Shown piece after piece: positions 51,074 through 62,205 of a DNA stretch of 64,000 nt. Location of the stretch: positions 1-64,000 of the IMG/VR virus record IMGVR_UViG_3300042892_003815, one strand, 5' to 3'. The notes under the pieces are model-generated. The model saw nothing but the letters and a program-made list of their open reading frames with translations. It made no database searches and was not told where the DNA came from. The DNA comes from a virus. The position numbers were made by a program, and so were the translations under genes. Within the stretch, counting starts at the first letter, position 1, and each line of letters starts with the position of its first letter.

Positions 51074-51493
51074 TTATGCTACATTTTTTGGTGTCTCTAT
51101 TATAAAGTTTAAATTTTTATCATATATAAATTGACTTACTTTAACTTCCATACCTACCTGTATCATTGTTTTGACTATCTTACCACATTCTGTATCAAGT
51201 ACTTTAGATTTTAAAGTAAGTTTATCAATCTTATTATTATTTATTATAAATGTCATTCCGTTTACAGAGCAACATACTTTTTGTAAGGATATCTGATGAC
51301 TATGCTGATCATCGAGTGTAATATATTTCTGAATATCATCAATATCAAACTGTATTTTTTTACTACCTTCTAAAAGATAGTTTAATTTTATCTCACGATA
51401 AATGGATTTCCACGTTGGATAACTAGAAAGTGCTAAATTATAATCATCAAATTCTAAATCACTACCTAATATGACATCAAATAGATAGTCCAT
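51074..51493 (-). CDS. catalytically dead prohead-protease-like protein
   Basis: LDDQHSHQISLQKV...KSKVLDTECGKIVKTMIQVGMEVKVSQF aligns with protease FDHPDVFDTSLSRA...IKLLSTYWGKEAKSLVDDGCPVFVSSR. Confidence 0.65.
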   Translation of the reverse strand: MDYLFDVILGSDLEFDDYNLALSSYPTWKSIYREIKLNYLLEGSKKIQFDIDDIQKYITLDDQHSHQISLQKVCCSVNGMTFIINNNKIDKLTLKSKVLDTECGKIVKTMIQVGMEVKVSQFIYDKNLNFIIETPKNVA

Positions 51494-53376
51494 TAGAACA
51501 ATTCAAAGTCAATTTGTTTTCTATCTAAGTCAACTGCTTTAACAATTACTTTTACTTCATCACCTAATCTTACTGATCCACCTGATTTTAAATTTACTGT
51601 ATAGTTTTCTGCATCTACTTTATGATTTCCATTATATCTAACCATACCTTCACATTTACTTTCAATAAGTTCAACATACATTCCCCAGTCAGTTACTCCT
51701 GATATAATTCCATCAAATACTTGTCCGATTTTATCTTCTAAGAATTCAATTTGTTTATATTTAATAGAGTCTCTCTGTGCCTTTGCTGCTAATATTTCTC
51801 TTTCAGAACACCATTTAGCCATACCTTCAATTTTTTGAGGACTTCCATTAGATTTCTTATTTAAGAAGTCTAATAAGACTCTATGAGTAATTAAATCCGG
51901 ATATCTTCTAATTGGTGAAGTAAAGTGAGAATAGTGAGTAAACCCTAATCCATAGTGTCCAGAGTTTACTATTGTATAACTTGCTTTAGACATACATCTT
52001 GTGATTAAAGTTTCTATCATATTTTCTTCTGGTTTACCTTTTATATCAGCAACTAATTCATTTATAGATTTTTTCAAATCTTGTGTATTTTCAACAACAT
52101 CTAAAGTATAACCAAAGTTTTTACATATTAGAGAAAGTGCTTCTAACTTTTCGACATTAGGAGTACTATGCACTCTATAAACATTGTGATACTTAGCATC
52201 ATAAAGAAGTTTTGCGACTAATTTATTTGCAAGTAACATATATTCTTCAATTAGTTTATTTGCATCTTTCTGTTCTTTGAAGAAAACCCCAATAGGTTTC
52301 TTAGTAGTTGGTTCTAATTTGAATCTAACTTCTATACCACCCATTTCGATAGAACCATCACTAATTCTTTGTTTTCTCATTTTTTTAGCAATAGTATCTA
52401 ATAATAGTATTTCTGTTTTGAAATCTCCTTCTTTACCTTCAATTATCTCTTGTGCTTCTTCATAAGAATATCTTCTATCTGAATGTATAACCGTTTTTCC
52501 AAACCATTTATCTAATAGTTTTCCTTCACTATCTAGTTTAACTATAACTGAGAAGCAAAGCTTATCTTCATTAGGTCTTAATGAACATACACCATTACTC
52601 AACCTTTCTGGTAACATTGGTACACATCTATCAACTAAGTAAACAGAGGTTGCTCTTTTAATAGCTTCTTCATCAATTATACCACCTTCTTTAACATAAT
52701 GTGAAACATCTGCGATATGTATACCTACTTCTACTGTATTATCATCAAGTATATTAACCGAAAGAGCGTCGTCAAAATCTTTGGCGTCAACTGGATCAAT
52801 TGTAAATGTTGTAATATTTCTTAAATCTCGTCTGTTATTGATTTCTGATTCAGGAATTGTAAAGTCTATCAATTCCGCTTCGGCTTCTACCATTAAAGGA
52901 AAGTTGTTTGGTAAACCGTACTCATACATTATTGAGTTCATTTCTGTATTATTGTCACCTGAACTACCAAGTATTTCTACTATTTTTGCTTTAGGCGATT
53001 TTGTTCCTGGTTCCCAGTCAATTAGTTCGACAAGAACTTTTTGATCGTGTGTTGCGTCGTGTTCTCCTTTTATATAAAAGTCAACCGCAATTTTTTGACT
53101 ATCTGGTACTACAAATATAAGTCTTTTATTTTCTTTGTTTATTTGTACCTTACCAACAAATTGAGTCCTAAATCTTTCAAGAACTTCTATAACTTCGGCT
53201 TCAATTTTGTTGTTCTTAGTTATTATTTTAATTTTAACTTTATCACCATTAAGTGAGTTAAGTGTATTTTTCTTAAATATGAAGATATTTTTATCTTCTA
53301 TATTTATAGAGGCATTTCCGCTGTTTGCGAAATCGATAGTGCCTTCAAAAACACTATCTTCTTTAATTTTATTCAT
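51493..53376 (-). CDS. rnr: ribonuclease R (RNB family exoribonuclease)
   Basis: TIDPVDAKDFDDAL, HIADVSHYV, YSHFTSPIRRYPDL, cold-shock domains and C-terminal S1. Confidence 0.93.
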   Translation of the reverse strand: MNKIKEDSVFEGTIDFANSGNASINIEDKNIFIFKKNTLNSLNGDKVKIKIITKNNKIEAEVIEVLERFRTQFVGKVQINKENKRLIFVVPDSQKIAVDFYIKGEHDATHDQKVLVELIDWEPGTKSPKAKIVEILGSSGDNNTEMNSIMYEYGLPNNFPLMVEAEAELIDFTIPESEINNRRDLRNITTFTIDPVDAKDFDDALSVNILDDNTVEVGIHIADVSHYVKEGGIIDEEAIKRATSVYLVDRCVPMLPERLSNGVCSLRPNEDKLCFSVIVKLDSEGKLLDKWFGKTVIHSDRRYSYEEAQEIIEGKEGDFKTEILLLDTIAKKMRKQRISDGSIEMGGIEVRFKLEPTTKKPIGVFFKEQKDANKLIEEYMLLANKLVAKLLYDAKYHNVYRVHSTPNVEKLEALSLICKNFGYTLDVVENTQDLKKSINELVADIKGKPEENMIETLITRCMSKASYTIVNSGHYGLGFTHYSHFTSPIRRYPDLITHRVLLDFLNKKSNGSPQKIEGMAKWCSEREILAAKAQRDSIKYKQIEFLEDKIGQVFDGIISGVTDWGMYVELIESKCEGMVRYNGNHKVDAENYTVNLKSGGSVRLGDEVKVIVKAVDLDRKQIDFELF

Positions 53377-53764
53377 TATTTAATTTTTTTTTGTTTTTAG
53401 AAATGTTATCTACTCCATACTTCTGTACTAATGTTTTCTTCATCTTTTCTAAAACTTTTTTATTCTGTATCGGATAATCAACTCCGAAATTTTTTCTTAA
53501 TGTTTCTTTTCTTTTAACTTCAGAACACCTTCTACAATAATAATCTCCCCAATCATTATCATATTTTAAGTAGTTCTTATAGATTACTTCTTTTTCAATT
53601 CCACAAGTGTCACATTTACACTTGATTTTGTAGTGTGATCCTTTTGGTAGTAATTCAACTGGAATTACAATTTCTTCACTTATATATACATCATATCCTA
53701 AATCATCATAATAGTTGTAATTTGATTCAGTGATTTTCACATTTATCTCTCTTGATAGGATCAT
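53369..53764 (-). CDS. zinc-ribbon protein with KYGVDN-type repeats (homing-endonuclease-associated domain, no nuclease)
   Basis: KCDTCG...YCRRC, NFGVDYP, KYGVDN; overlaps rnr start. Confidence 0.6.
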   Translation of the reverse strand: MILSREINVKITESNYNYYDDLGYDVYISEEIVIPVELLPKGSHYKIKCKCDTCGIEKEVIYKNYLKYDNDWGDYYCRRCSEVKRKETLRKNFGVDYPIQNKKVLEKMKKTLVQKYGVDNISKNKKKLNNE

Positions 53765-53823
53765 AAAAAACCGCATTTTTTTAAGTATTTATTAAATATG
53801 GCGTTTCTCCTCCAAAACTTTTA

Positions 53824-53831
53824 CAAAGATA
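53824..53831 (-). promoter_or_regulatory. Bacteroidota -7 element TATCTTTG driving zinc-ribbon/rnr operon
   Basis: TAnnTTTG consensus; -33 element only partial. Confidence 0.5.
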
Positions 53832-61763: not shown

Positions 61764-61775
61764 TAAAAAAAAATA

Positions 61776-61805
61776 AAGCCAAAAACTAAACTTTTTGGCT
61801 TTTTT
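61776..61805. terminator. terminator hairpin
   Basis: AAAGCCAAAAA-CTAAAC-TTTTTGGCTTTTTT. Confidence 0.65.
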
Positions 61806-61829
61806 AATCTAATATATAAACAAACAATT

Positions 61830-62205
61830 GGGGATGTAATAGCATTGATTCTTAGTTGATTAATAATTATGCAAGTATCGGGTGGCCTACAATGACCGAT
61901 TAATAAATTAGATGGTACAATTTTAAACGGCAACGTTAATCAAGTAGGAACAAGTGAAGATTTAGTAGCTTGCTTACAAAACAATTTGATCTCTAACAGA
62001 GATTTAGTAGTAGCTTAATCAAATAAGACTAATACACCAAAAATTCTACAGCTGTGGTCACCAGTCTAAAAGTGAAACCTTTTTATTAGTACTTTGAGAT
62101 TCAAAAACTGATTATTTTGTAAGACTTAGAAAAACTTACTAAACTTGTAAACGAATAATTTGCGATGACTGAAAAGACACGTTGGGCAGTTCAACGTCAT
62201 CTCCA
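61830..62205 (+). ncRNA. ssrA: tmRNA
   Basis: 5-prime GGGGATG pairs with 3-prime CATCTCC-A (G3:U70 alanine identity); T-arm ACGTTG-GGCAGTT-CAACGT; tag ORF 61929-62018 ending DLVVA-stop. Confidence 0.9.

What the first reader, a model, noticed from the sequence alone, without database searches (positions are those of the whole stretch)
51493..62205. Phage-encoded ribosome-rescue set: RNase R, NFACT-R and tmRNA within 11 kb
Seen: intact RNase R (early), stand-alone NFACT-R (late, cargo motif) and tmRNA (late box at 61811). Established: RNase R degrades non-stop mRNA with tmRNA-SmpB; NFACT-R is the tRNA-Ala-recognising domain of RqcH, the backup pathway to tmRNA. Inference: a coordinated counter to defences that cleave mRNA/tRNA and stall ribosomes, or a means to purge host mRNA and redirect ribosomes. 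No smpB is in this window, so host SmpB would be needed.
Basis: partly seen in the sequence, partly recalled or inferred. Interest (0 to 1): 0.72.

Follow-up and report, generated by a model that had tools for sequence, protein, structure and literature searches.

The report
Hidden megaphage tmRNA with rescue-type neighbours
A fragment of a giant phage carries a genuine but unusual ribosome-rescue RNA (tmRNA) that standard detectors miss, near an intact RNase R and a stand-alone NFACT-R protein, but the three are separately transcribed and separately lost in relatives, so they are not one fixed module.

Summary
Observation confirmed. All three genes are real.

- **tmRNA (61830-62205, +):** ARAGORN and Rfam's gathering score both miss it. 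45 distinct copies from related huge-phage contigs support the tmRNA fold: 97.5% of cells are paired, against 36-47% in slid controls. G3:U is kept, and a 27-29-codon tag frame is under coding selection.
- **RNase R (51493-53376, -):** it passes NCBI's RNase R equivalog model and is catalytically intact. It lacks the N-terminal HTH and the C-terminal basic tail.
- **NFACT-R (58066-58458, +):** it is truly solo, because no NFACT-N occurs in any genome searched.

Interpretation partly supported.
- The premise that NFACT-R recognises tRNA-Ala is wrong. NFACT-N and HhH do that.
- A better lead is the solo NFACT-R protein Jlp2, a His-dependent peptidyl-tRNA release factor. The phage family keeps matching invariant histidines. 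It is always followed by, and in one lineage fused to, a PepT/M28-like peptidase.
- Host SmpB is probably not needed. All three relatives of 385 kb or more that were searched encode SmpB.
- The trio lies within 10 kb of the capsid gene in 39 of 54 loci. RNase R is a clean presence/absence polymorphism, and NFACT-R is missing or degenerate in some subclades.

The scan has reported the same hidden tmRNA set on other genomes, with the same verdict.

The parts
61830..62205 (+). tmRNA (ssrA) gene from mature 5' G to discriminator A. 62206-62208 read CAA, so CCA is not encoded.
   Evidence: Full-length RF00023 match at 13.9 bits. 45 distinct homologous copies fold into an acceptor stem, a T-arm, a P2 helix and inner hairpins, with 30 of 50 pairs showing compensatory changes. 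97.5% of cells are paired, against 36-47% in slid controls, and 0 of 500 shuffles reach the observed values.
61929..62018 (+). Tag reading frame of the tmRNA: 29 codons plus TAA, starting at GGC (Gly) and ending ...LVVA.
   Evidence: The frame is open for 27-29 codons in all 45 copies, with indels only in multiples of three. Synonymous/non-synonymous codon differences are 630/1185 in frame, against 129/1593 and 27/1685 off frame. The Rfam alignment puts GGC at the consensus resume codon.
62179..62197 (+). T-arm of the tRNA-like domain: a 6-bp stem with a 7-nt loop GGCAGUU (62185-62191), which is not a T-Psi-C-type loop.
   Evidence: 5 of 6 stem pairs show compensatory changes. The loop sequence is read directly.
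61788..61820 (+). Promoter-like element upstream of the tmRNA: AAACTTTTTGG, then 11 nt, then TAATATATAAA.
   Evidence: The same bipartite element, AAACTTTTTTG / ~10-13 nt / (A)TATTATATATA, precedes the tmRNA in nearly all relatives. In many it runs into a TAnnTTTG motif. The pattern occurs only twice in the 191 kb contig, against 0.1 expected.
61778..61805 (+). Terminator-like hairpin plus T-run ending the upstream peptidase gene. It overlaps the first half of the promoter-like element.
   Evidence: Read directly from the sequence.
62216..62239 (+). Terminator-like hairpin (CCCACTC...GAGTGGG) plus T-run directly after the tmRNA.
   Evidence: Read from the sequence. An equivalent hairpin plus T-run follows the tmRNA in the relatives listed.
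58066..58458 (+). Stand-alone NFACT-R protein, 130 aa. Residues 1-18 are a disordered N-terminal leader (MRLKKYKQFNES...), followed by an NFACT-R fold with invariant N39, H55 and H63.
   Evidence: PF05670 at 2.8e-14. Best PDB sequence match is RqcH residues 441-553. AlphaFold model has pLDDT 91.4. Foldseek gives TMq 0.75-0.77 to RqcH NFACT-R and 0.75 to CCDC25. Invariant residues come from 30 diverse homologs. No NFACT-N is found in any genome searched.
58020..58054 (+). Terminator-like hairpin (58020-58040) after the capsid gene, then TATAAATA (58047-58054) 12 nt before the NFACT-R start.
   Evidence: Read from the sequence. The motif is not statistically enriched in the window.
58496..59872 (+). 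PepT/M28-like metallopeptidase, 458 aa. It is the constant downstream partner of NFACT-R.
   Evidence: Peptidase_M28 and PepT-like matches, and phrog_4191. It is adjacent on the same strand in 68 of 69 loci that have NFACT-R. A 499-aa NFACT-R-peptidase fusion, 47% identical to this peptidase, is encoded on two other huge contigs.
60486..61763 (+). Second PepT-like peptidase paralog, 425 aa, directly upstream of the tmRNA.
   Evidence: phrog_4191 at 1e-52 and PepT-like matches.
51493..53376 (-). RNase R-type 3'-5' exoribonuclease, 627 aa, with CSD1-CSD2-RNB-S1 domains. It has no N-terminal HTH and no C-terminal basic tail.
   Evidence: TIGR02063 above its cut-off; model positions 106-724 of the 813-position E. 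coli-type model are matched; best PDB match is B. subtilis RNase R 8cdu, residues 81-707 of 779, and the Asp motif is conserved.
53369..53776 (-). Small gene overlapping the RNase R start by 8 nt, with weak homing-endonuclease-like matches. It is the upstream operon mate of RNase R.
   Evidence: Where RNase R is absent in relatives, this gene and the 139-aa gene at 51074-51493 are directly adjacent.
56271..57992 (+). Gp23-type major capsid protein. It is the synteny anchor, not part of the rescue functions.
   Evidence: PF07068 at 2.6e-30. 233 related viral contigs were found with it.

Best explanation
The window is the first third of a Mahaphage-type huge phage genome, probably with a Bacteroidota host. 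It carries a functional but divergent one-piece tmRNA. The steps below are marked as shown or inferred.

tmRNA:
- Shown: the fold, the G3:U alanine identity pair, the discriminator A, and a conserved 29-codon tag frame.
- Shown: it is an independent transcription unit with a conserved promoter-like element and flanking terminators.
- Inferred: after 3' trimming and CCA addition, AlaRS charges it. A phage-encoded SmpB, lying in the unassembled part of this genome, delivers it to ribosomes stalled on broken mRNA. The nascent chain then receives a phage-specific tag of about 30 residues with a hydrophobic end. Proteases, possibly including the phage ClpP, degrade the tagged chain, and the ribosome is freed for phage translation.

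RNase R:
- It is a catalytically intact core enzyme.
- Inferred: it most likely degrades structured or host RNA.
- It is an optional accessory, not an obligate partner of the tmRNA.

Solo NFACT-R:
- It is a captured RqcH C-terminal domain that works with the peptidase next to it.
- Inferred: the most likely activity is Jlp2-like binding or hydrolysis of peptidyl-tRNA on ribosomal particles.

Overall, the three lie together because all sit in the conserved head-gene neighbourhood. They form a loose translation and RNA quality-control toolkit spread over the genome, not one co-regulated module.
For: tmRNA:
- Searches give the full-length Rfam alignment and the G3:U acceptor stem.
- Searches show 65 loci with the element, 45 distinct copies, 30 of 50 pairs compensatory, 229 compensatory cells against 20-50 in slid controls, and 0 of 500 shuffles reaching the observed values.
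- Searches show the conserved tag frame with a coding signature.
- One search shows the conserved promoter-like element and terminators.

SmpB:
- It is present in LR745206, LR756502 and a 385 kb relative.
- Those genomes have no other tmRNA candidate.

Host phylum and prior report of tmRNA/SmpB in huge phages: PMC7162821.

RNase R:
- Family assignment and intact motif.
- It is optional.

NFACT-R:
- Family, fold and conserved residues.
- No NFACT-N.
- Peptidase adjacency and fusion.
- Jlp2 precedent, with catalytic H44 and nearby H52: preprint 10.1101/2025.09.04.673968.

Toolkit elsewhere:
- ArfB-sized RF-1 ORF.
- ClpP at 89196-89723 of the contig.
Against: - There are no expression, charging or tagging data.
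- The tmRNA scores far below Rfam's gathering score (13.9 against 47 bits), and ARAGORN misses it.
- Its T-loop (GGCAGUN) is not the canonical T-Psi-C type.
- CCA is not encoded.
- Pseudoknots were not resolved.
- SmpB is not on this 191 kb fragment, and its conserved neighbourhood is not there either.
- One 249 kb relative, rated 90% complete, has the tmRNA but no SmpB.
- The equivalence of phage H55 to Jlp2 H44 rests on motif spacing and fold match, not on a residue-level superposition.
- A subclade (L137, L147, L168, L170) has NFACT-R copies without either histidine.
- CCDC25, the other solved solo NFACT-R protein, binds DNA.
Confidence: 0.7

Rival explanations
1. RNase R, NFACT-R and tmRNA form one coordinated, interdependent rescue module. 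The tmRNA-SmpB recruits the phage RNase R to non-stop mRNA, and NFACT-R provides an RqcH-like backup. The module was selected to counter defences that cut mRNA or tRNA.
For: - The trio lies within 10 kb of the capsid gene in 39 of 54 loci.
- RNase R works with tmRNA-SmpB in E. coli (PMC8012679).
- Other rescue-type genes are in the genomes.
Against: - The three are separate transcription units on two strands.
- RNase R is 158 kb away in LR756502 and absent from a ~95% complete 385 kb relative that has tmRNA, SmpB and NFACT-R.
- RNase R shows a clean presence/absence polymorphism between its two neighbours.
- It lacks the C-terminal tail.
- No NFACT-N, so Ala-tailing is impossible.
- NFACT-R does not recognise tRNA-Ala.
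- The co-occurrence is shared ancestry within one conserved syntenic block, not independent association.
Confidence: 0.15
2. NFACT-R is not a translation factor here. It would be a head-associated nucleic-acid-binding protein, carried into the capsid by its N-terminal leader. It might act with the neighbouring peptidases in head maturation or as injected cargo binding DNA or RNA. Its place beside the tmRNA would then be incidental.
For: - The gene sits a median of 79 nt after the capsid gene in relatives.
- The leader M[KR]xxK[YF]xxFxE is shared by 16 of 212 ORF N-termini, against 1 of 1054 internal Met controls, and is disordered in the model.
- CCDC25, a solo NFACT-R protein, has been crystallised with dsDNA.
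- Some subclades have lost both histidines but keep the leader.
Against: - The domain is 38-45% identical to the ribosome-bound RqcH domain.
- N39, H55 and H63 are invariant across 30 diverse homologs.
- In the fused form the gene lies among replication genes, not head genes.
- That the leader targets proteins to capsids is a resemblance recalled from T4. It was not tested.
Confidence: 0.25
3. RNase R serves bulk turnover of host RNA or ribosomes, for nucleotide supply or host shut-off, and has no link to trans-translation.
For: - The core enzyme is intact but lacks the terminal extensions.
- Its best structural relative is B. subtilis RNase R, from entries in which it is bound to ribosomal particles (the 30S-degradation context is recalled from memory).
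- Its presence varies among tmRNA-bearing relatives.
Against: Nothing in the sequence separates this from a role in non-stop mRNA decay, and the enzyme could do both.
Confidence: 0.35
4. The tmRNA-like element is a non-functional remnant, such as a captured host ssrA or part of an attachment site.
For: - The Rfam score is low and ARAGORN gives no call.
- Phages often integrate at ssrA (general knowledge).
Against: - The element is full length with both ends.
- It is conserved in 53 of 54 covered loci.
- Compensatory changes occur in every helix and the tag frame shows a coding signature.
- It has its own conserved promoter-like element and terminators.
- Relatives encode SmpB.
Confidence: 0.03

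Closest known systems
One-piece bacterial/phage tmRNA (SsrA, Rfam RF00023) with SmpB, as already reported in general terms for huge phages (Al-Shayeb et al. 2020, PMC7162821)
   Same: - A 7-bp acceptor stem with G3:U and discriminator A, a T-arm, and a long P2 helix closing a loop that holds a PK1-position hairpin.
- An internal tag frame ending in hydrophobic residues.
- SmpB encoded in the same genomes.
- A Gly first codon, as I recall for Bacteroidota tags (not checked here).
   Different: - It scores 13.9 bits against a gathering score of 47, and is invisible to ARAGORN, the tool used in the 2020 paper.
- The T-loop is GGCAGUN rather than the T-Psi-C type.
- CCA is replaced by CAA or CUA in most copies.
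- The tag is long (27-29 codons against about 10 in E. coli) and conserved as a peptide that is unlike ...ALAA tags.
Bacterial RNase R (TIGR02063; B. subtilis RNase R, PDB 8cdu; E. coli RNase R)
   Same: CSD1-CSD2-RNB-S1 core, scoring above the equivalog cut-off, with an intact catalytic Asp motif.
   Different: At 627 aa it lacks about 60-100 N-terminal residues (HTH) and the whole C-terminal basic tail. It ends at the S1 domain. In E. coli that tail is reported to be needed for tmRNA-SmpB-linked non-stop mRNA decay (recalled from memory; the review read here says only that the recruitment mechanism is unclear).
RqcH/NEMF NFACT proteins (B. subtilis RqcH, PDB 7aqc/7as8)
   Same: The NFACT-R domain is 38% identical with TMq 0.75-0.77, including the W-x-H ... 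G-S-H motif.
   Different: There is no NFACT-N, HhH or coiled-coil/M domain anywhere in the phage genomes. It therefore cannot recruit tRNA-Ala or make Ala tails.
Jlp2/CCDC25 solo NFACT-R proteins. Jlp2 is a His44-dependent non-canonical peptidyl-tRNA release factor (bioRxiv 10.1101/2025.09.04.673968)
   Same: - A stand-alone NFACT-R fold, TMq 0.75 to CCDC25.
- Invariant Asn and two His residues with the same H-to-H +8 spacing as Jlp2 H44/H52.
   Different: - Only 24-26% identical.
- No C-terminal coiled coil.
- It is closer in sequence to bacterial RqcH than to the eukaryotic proteins.
- It carries a phage-specific N-terminal leader.
- It is coupled to, and in one lineage fused with, a PepT/M28-like peptidase.
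- No activity has been tested.

Membership tests
tmRNA (SsrA, RF00023) | 5' and 3' ends form a 7-bp acceptor stem with a G3:U70 pair and discriminator A | tested here: met
   GGGGAUG pairs with CAUCUCC, followed by A62205. G:U at the third pair in 43 of 45 copies. Positions 5 and 6 show compensatory changes: A:U, G:C, C:G and U:A/A:U.
tmRNA (SsrA, RF00023) | Encoded or added 3' CCA | tested here: inconclusive
   The window reads ACAA. Only 2 of 45 copies read ACCA, and several read ACUA. The end would have to be trimmed and CCA added by a nucleotidyltransferase, which was not searched for.
tmRNA (SsrA, RF00023) | T-arm with a canonical T-loop | tested here: not met
   The stem is strongly supported, with 5 of 6 pairs compensatory. 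The 7-nt loop is GGCAGUN, not T-Psi-C-R-A-like.
tmRNA (SsrA, RF00023) | Internal tag reading frame with a resume codon and an in-frame stop, conserved as a peptide | tested here: met
   61929-62018. The frame is open for 27-29 codons in 45 of 45 copies, with a synonymous excess only in this frame.
tmRNA (SsrA, RF00023) | Long P2 helix and a ring of pseudoknots | tested here: inconclusive
   P2 (three segments), the PK1-position hairpin and two inner hairpins are supported by covariation. Pseudoknot second stems were not resolved.
tmRNA (SsrA, RF00023) | Score at or above Rfam's gathering score; ARAGORN call | tested here: not met
   13.9 bits against 47. ARAGORN finds none in the window, the whole contig, or the two relatives' loci.
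tmRNA (SsrA, RF00023) | SmpB partner in the same genome | tested here: inconclusive
   Absent from this 191 kb fragment, which is about 33% complete. Present in LR745206, LR756502 and a 385 kb relative. Absent from a 249 kb relative.
RNase R (TIGR02063) | Equivalog model score above the curated cut-off; CSD-RNB-S1 architecture; catalytic Asp motif | tested here: met
   636.5 bits against 597.85. Domains. Motif TIDPVDAKDFDD aligned to B. subtilis RNase R.
RNase R (TIGR02063) | N-terminal HTH and C-terminal basic tail of the E. coli/B. subtilis enzymes | tested here: not met
   It matches positions 106-724 of the 813-position E. coli-type model and residues 81-707 of the 779-aa B. subtilis chain. 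The protein ends at residue 627, right after S1.
RNase R (TIGR02063) | tmRNA-SmpB-dependent engagement on rescued ribosomes | not testable with these tools
   Needs biochemistry or genetics.
RqcH/NEMF (NFACT family) | NFACT-N plus HhH, the tRNA-Ala-decoding part, with a coiled coil | tested here: not met
   PF05833 gives no match in the contig, LR745206, LR756502 or the 385 kb relative, while controls match.
RqcH/NEMF (NFACT family) | NFACT-R domain | tested here: met
   PF05670 at 54 bits against a cut-off of 29.8. Fold match to the RqcH NFACT-R domain.
Jlp2/CCDC25-type solo NFACT-R release factor | Stand-alone NFACT-R fold | tested here: met
   130 aa, model pLDDT 91.4, TMq 0.75 to CCDC25.
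Jlp2/CCDC25-type solo NFACT-R release factor | Catalytic histidine (Jlp2 H44 / CCDC25 H41) in the conserved cavity | tested here: inconclusive
   H55 (W-M-H) and H63 (G-S-H) are invariant in 30 homologs and spaced +8, like Jlp2 H44/H52. No residue-level superposition was done. Both are lost in a minority subclade.
Jlp2/CCDC25-type solo NFACT-R release factor | C-terminal coiled-coil extension | tested here: not met
   The protein ends with the domain, and the model has no long C-terminal helix. Burroughs and Aravind describe the coiled coil in the eukaryotic solo forms.
Jlp2/CCDC25-type solo NFACT-R release factor | Peptidyl-tRNA hydrolysis on ribosomal complexes | not testable with these tools
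   Needs an in vitro release assay.

The most novel reading that the evidence does not exclude
The solo NFACT-R, together with its adjacent and sometimes fused PepT-like peptidase, would be a phage member of the newly proposed class of histidine-dependent NFACT-R peptidyl-tRNA release factors. It might be delivered with the virion through its N-terminal leader. It would work beside a phage-private trans-translation system. In that system a divergent tmRNA with phage SmpB writes a 30-residue, phage-specific tag that phage-encoded proteolysis (ClpP) reads.
Probability: 0.15. Interest if true: 0.8.

Novelty: new variant of a known kind. Interest (0 to 1): 0.52.

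Why it matters
Phage tmRNA and SmpB are known, so the class is not new. Three points still have value.

1. This tmRNA lineage escapes both standard detectors. Published megaphage genomes that encode SmpB, including the 634 and 642 kb records, probably carry an unannotated tmRNA. A covariance model built from the 45-copy alignment would fix that.

2. The tag is long, conserved as a peptide and unlike host-type tags. That raises a testable question: do huge phages mark rescued chains for their own proteolysis machinery?

3. A 2025-26 preprint asks whether histidine-bearing NFACT-R domains outside Jlp2 are release factors. 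This abundant phage family gives a compact test case, because it has invariant histidines and a peptidase fusion.

Tried and rejected
- **15-mer scan.** An exact 15-mer scan of viral contigs with the tmRNA 3' end returned about 90 unrelated loci, too unspecific to use. I replaced it with capsid-anchored loci.
- **nhmmer input.** The first nhmmer run failed on its input format and was redone from an HMM.
- **Alternative tag frame.** The frame starting GCA, one base later, gives only 2-5 codons and shows no synonymous excess. Rejected.
- **Second tmRNA in relatives.** RF00023 over the two complete relatives gave only tRNA-sized hits. Rejected.
- **RqcH split into pieces.** No NFACT-N anywhere. 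Rejected.
- **Phage Pth.** None found.
- **SmpB just beyond the contig end.** The conserved SmpB neighbourhood of relatives has no counterpart on this contig, so its position here is unknown.
- **General 'late box'.** TATAAATA is not enriched, and the tmRNA promoter-like pattern is nearly unique. Expression timing is left open.
- **Pseudoknot stems.** The covariation scan gave only alternatives that overlap P2. Not claimed.
- **Bacteroidota tag resume codons.** The literature search found nothing, so that point stays a recollection.
- **NFACT-R in phages.** The literature search returned only a general review.

Full report
**What the DNA is.** The window is the first 64 kb of a 190,950-bp viral contig with 29.5% G+C and an estimated completeness of about 33%. 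Its nearest database relatives are the 634,780-bp and 642,428-bp uncultured phage genomes LR745206 and LR756502. These come from the study that defined the Mahaphage clade and predicted Bacteroidetes hosts for its largest members (PMC7162821). The capsid protein gene finds 233 related viral contigs. I fetched 80 of them with 10 kb flanks.

**The tmRNA.**
- *Detection.* ARAGORN finds nothing in the window, the whole contig or the relatives' loci, and Rfam finds nothing at gathering score. A permissive Rfam search gives one full-length RF00023 match at 61830-62208, at only 13.9 bits.
- *Ends.* 5' GGGGAUG pairs with CAUCUCC at 62198-62204, with a G3:U pair. A62205 is the discriminator. CAA stands where CCA would be.
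- *Conservation.* An HMM of three copies finds the element in 65 of 83 loci, and in 53 of 54 loci with at least 7 kb on both sides of the capsid gene.
- *Fold.* On 45 distinct copies, RNAalifold draws an acceptor stem, a T-arm, a three-part P2 helix, a hairpin at the PK1 position and two inner hairpins. 30 of 50 pairs carry compensatory changes.
- *Controls.* Pair counting gives 97.5% paired cells against 36-47% with partners slid by 1-3 columns, and 229 compensatory cells against 20-50. No shuffle out of 500 reaches the observed values.
- *Tag frame.* The frame at 61929-62018 encodes GNVNQVGTSEDLVACLQNNLISNRDLVVA. It is open for 27-29 codons in every copy, with indels only in threes. It shows 630 synonymous against 1185 non-synonymous codon differences. 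The other two frames show 129/1593 and 27/1685.
- *Transcription signals.* A bipartite promoter-like element (AAACTTTTTTG, about 10-13 nt, then ATATTATATATA, often running into TAnnTTTG) precedes the gene in relatives, and hairpin terminators flank it.
- *Unusual features.* The T-loop is GGCAGUN, CCA is not encoded, and the tag is long. These probably explain why detectors miss it.

**SmpB and other rescue genes.**
- SmpB is absent from this fragment. It is present in LR745206 and LR756502, 128-136 kb from their tmRNA, and in a 385 kb, ~95% complete relative. Those genomes have no other tmRNA candidate.
- A 249 kb relative has the tmRNA but no SmpB.
- The conserved SmpB neighbourhood is not on this contig, so it lies in the missing two thirds if it is present at all.
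- The two complete relatives also have an RF-1-domain ORF of 174-178 aa, about the size of ArfB.
- ClpP is at 89196-89723 of this contig.
- No Pth was found.

**RNase R.**
- The 627-aa protein passes the RNase R equivalog model and has an intact Asp motif.
- It lacks the N-terminal HTH and ends right after S1, with no basic tail.
- It lies on the minus strand in a small operon with two unrelated genes.
- In relatives it is within 10 kb of the capsid gene in 43 of 54 loci. It is 158 kb away in LR756502. It is absent from the 385 kb relative that keeps tmRNA, SmpB and NFACT-R.
- Where it is missing, its two neighbours abut. It is therefore an optional accessory.

**NFACT-R.**
- *Gene and signals.* The likely start is the ATG at 58066, giving 130 aa like the homologs. 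A terminator-like hairpin and a TATAAATA box separate it from the capsid gene.
In RqcH it is NFACT-N and HhH that read tRNA-Ala, and NFACT-R sits near the A-site finger (PMC8012679).
- *Family.* A full-library search finds 8,625 relatives. The closest cluster representatives are 120-140 aa solo forms, or 217-330 aa forms with the domain at the C-terminus. Full-length RqcH proteins follow at 40-45% identity.
- *Conserved residues.* In 30 diverse solo forms N39, H55 and H63 are invariant.
- *Fold.* The model is confident (pLDDT 91.4), with a disordered 18-residue leader. It matches RqcH NFACT-R (TMq 0.75-0.77) and CCDC25 (TMq 0.75).
- *Jlp2 precedent.* A recent preprint shows that yeast Jlp2, a solo NFACT-R protein, releases peptides from peptidyl-tRNA through H44, with H52 nearby. 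It asks whether other histidine-bearing NFACT-R domains do the same. The phage H55/H63 pair has the same spacing. This is inference, not a superposition.
- *Peptidase link.* NFACT-R is followed on the same strand by a PepT/M28-like peptidase in 68 of 69 loci. A 499-aa protein that fuses the two is encoded identically on two other huge contigs, of 629 and 565 kb, among replication genes. That fusion ties NFACT-R functionally to the peptidase, not to the capsid gene or the tmRNA.
- *Exceptions.* One subclade lacks NFACT-R near the capsid gene. Another has copies without either histidine.

**The leader.** A strict pattern matches 16 of 212 ORF N-termini, against 1 of 1054 internal methionines. 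The matches include NFACT-R and the 193-aa gene two genes downstream. Its likeness to the T4 capsid-targeting sequence is a recollection and was not tested. If it holds, NFACT-R may be packaged and injected.

**Verdict.**
These phages do carry a translation and RNA quality-control toolkit. The three genes here are not a co-regulated or obligate set, and the NFACT-R premise was wrong. SmpB is probably phage-encoded.
- The class is known (phage tmRNA with SmpB). The tmRNA is a divergent variant that escapes detectors.
- The solo NFACT-R-peptidase pair is the least explained and most interesting part.
- After I had reached these conclusions, a look-up showed that the scan has reported the same set on at least four other genomes, with the same verdicts.

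Noticed in passing
whole contig; e.g. window 6252, 28039, 58066, 59874: Sixteen of 212 ORFs start with a shared leader of the form M[KR]xxK[YF]xxFxE, against 1 of 1054 internal Met controls. The leader is disordered in the NFACT-R model. It may be a targeting or processing signal.
   Followed up: partly
L189:8001-9500 and L190:8001-9500: A 499-aa natural fusion of NFACT-R (with leader and both histidines) to a PepT/M28-like peptidase, on two independent huge contigs of 629 kb and 565 kb. It lies among DNA polymerase B and helicase genes.
   Followed up: partly
LR745206 48139-48459 (-); LR756502 107309-107629 (-): RF-1-domain ORFs of only 174-178 aa, about the size of the alternative rescue factor ArfB, in the two complete relatives. 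None is on this fragment.
   Followed up: no
contig 89196-89723 (+), beyond the window: A phage-encoded ClpP (225 bits). LR745206 has two copies and LR756502 has three, while the 385 kb relative has none.
   Followed up: partly
window 51074-53776 (-); compare L113, L114: RNase R is a clean presence/absence polymorphism between a 135-aa gene with weak homing-endonuclease-like matches and a 139-aa gene. Where RNase R is missing, these two abut.
   Followed up: partly
window 62256-62765 (+): A NADAR-domain gene directly follows the tmRNA terminator and keeps that place in most relatives. NADAR proteins are ADP-ribose-processing enzymes (recalled from memory), so a counter-defence role is possible.
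   Followed up: no
contig 157964-157994 (+): The only other copy of the tmRNA-type promoter-like element in 191 kb lies 26 nt upstream of a 191-aa ORF.
   Followed up: no
L137, L147, L168, L170 (NFACT-R ORFs after the capsid gene): Divergent NFACT-R copies of 158-174 aa that keep the N-terminal leader but have lost both conserved histidines.
   Followed up: partly
window 53963-56182 (+) and 58496-61763 (+): The head block holds a 739-aa prohead-protease-like gene (phrog_207) and two paralogous PepT-like peptidases around a leader-bearing 193-aa gene. That is an unusual density of peptidases next to a capsid gene.
   Followed up: no
contig end, about 190850-190950: The contig stops inside a short-period repeat rich in TCTGG/TTC units (a Ser/Gly-type repeat), which is a likely cause of the assembly break.
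   Followed up: no
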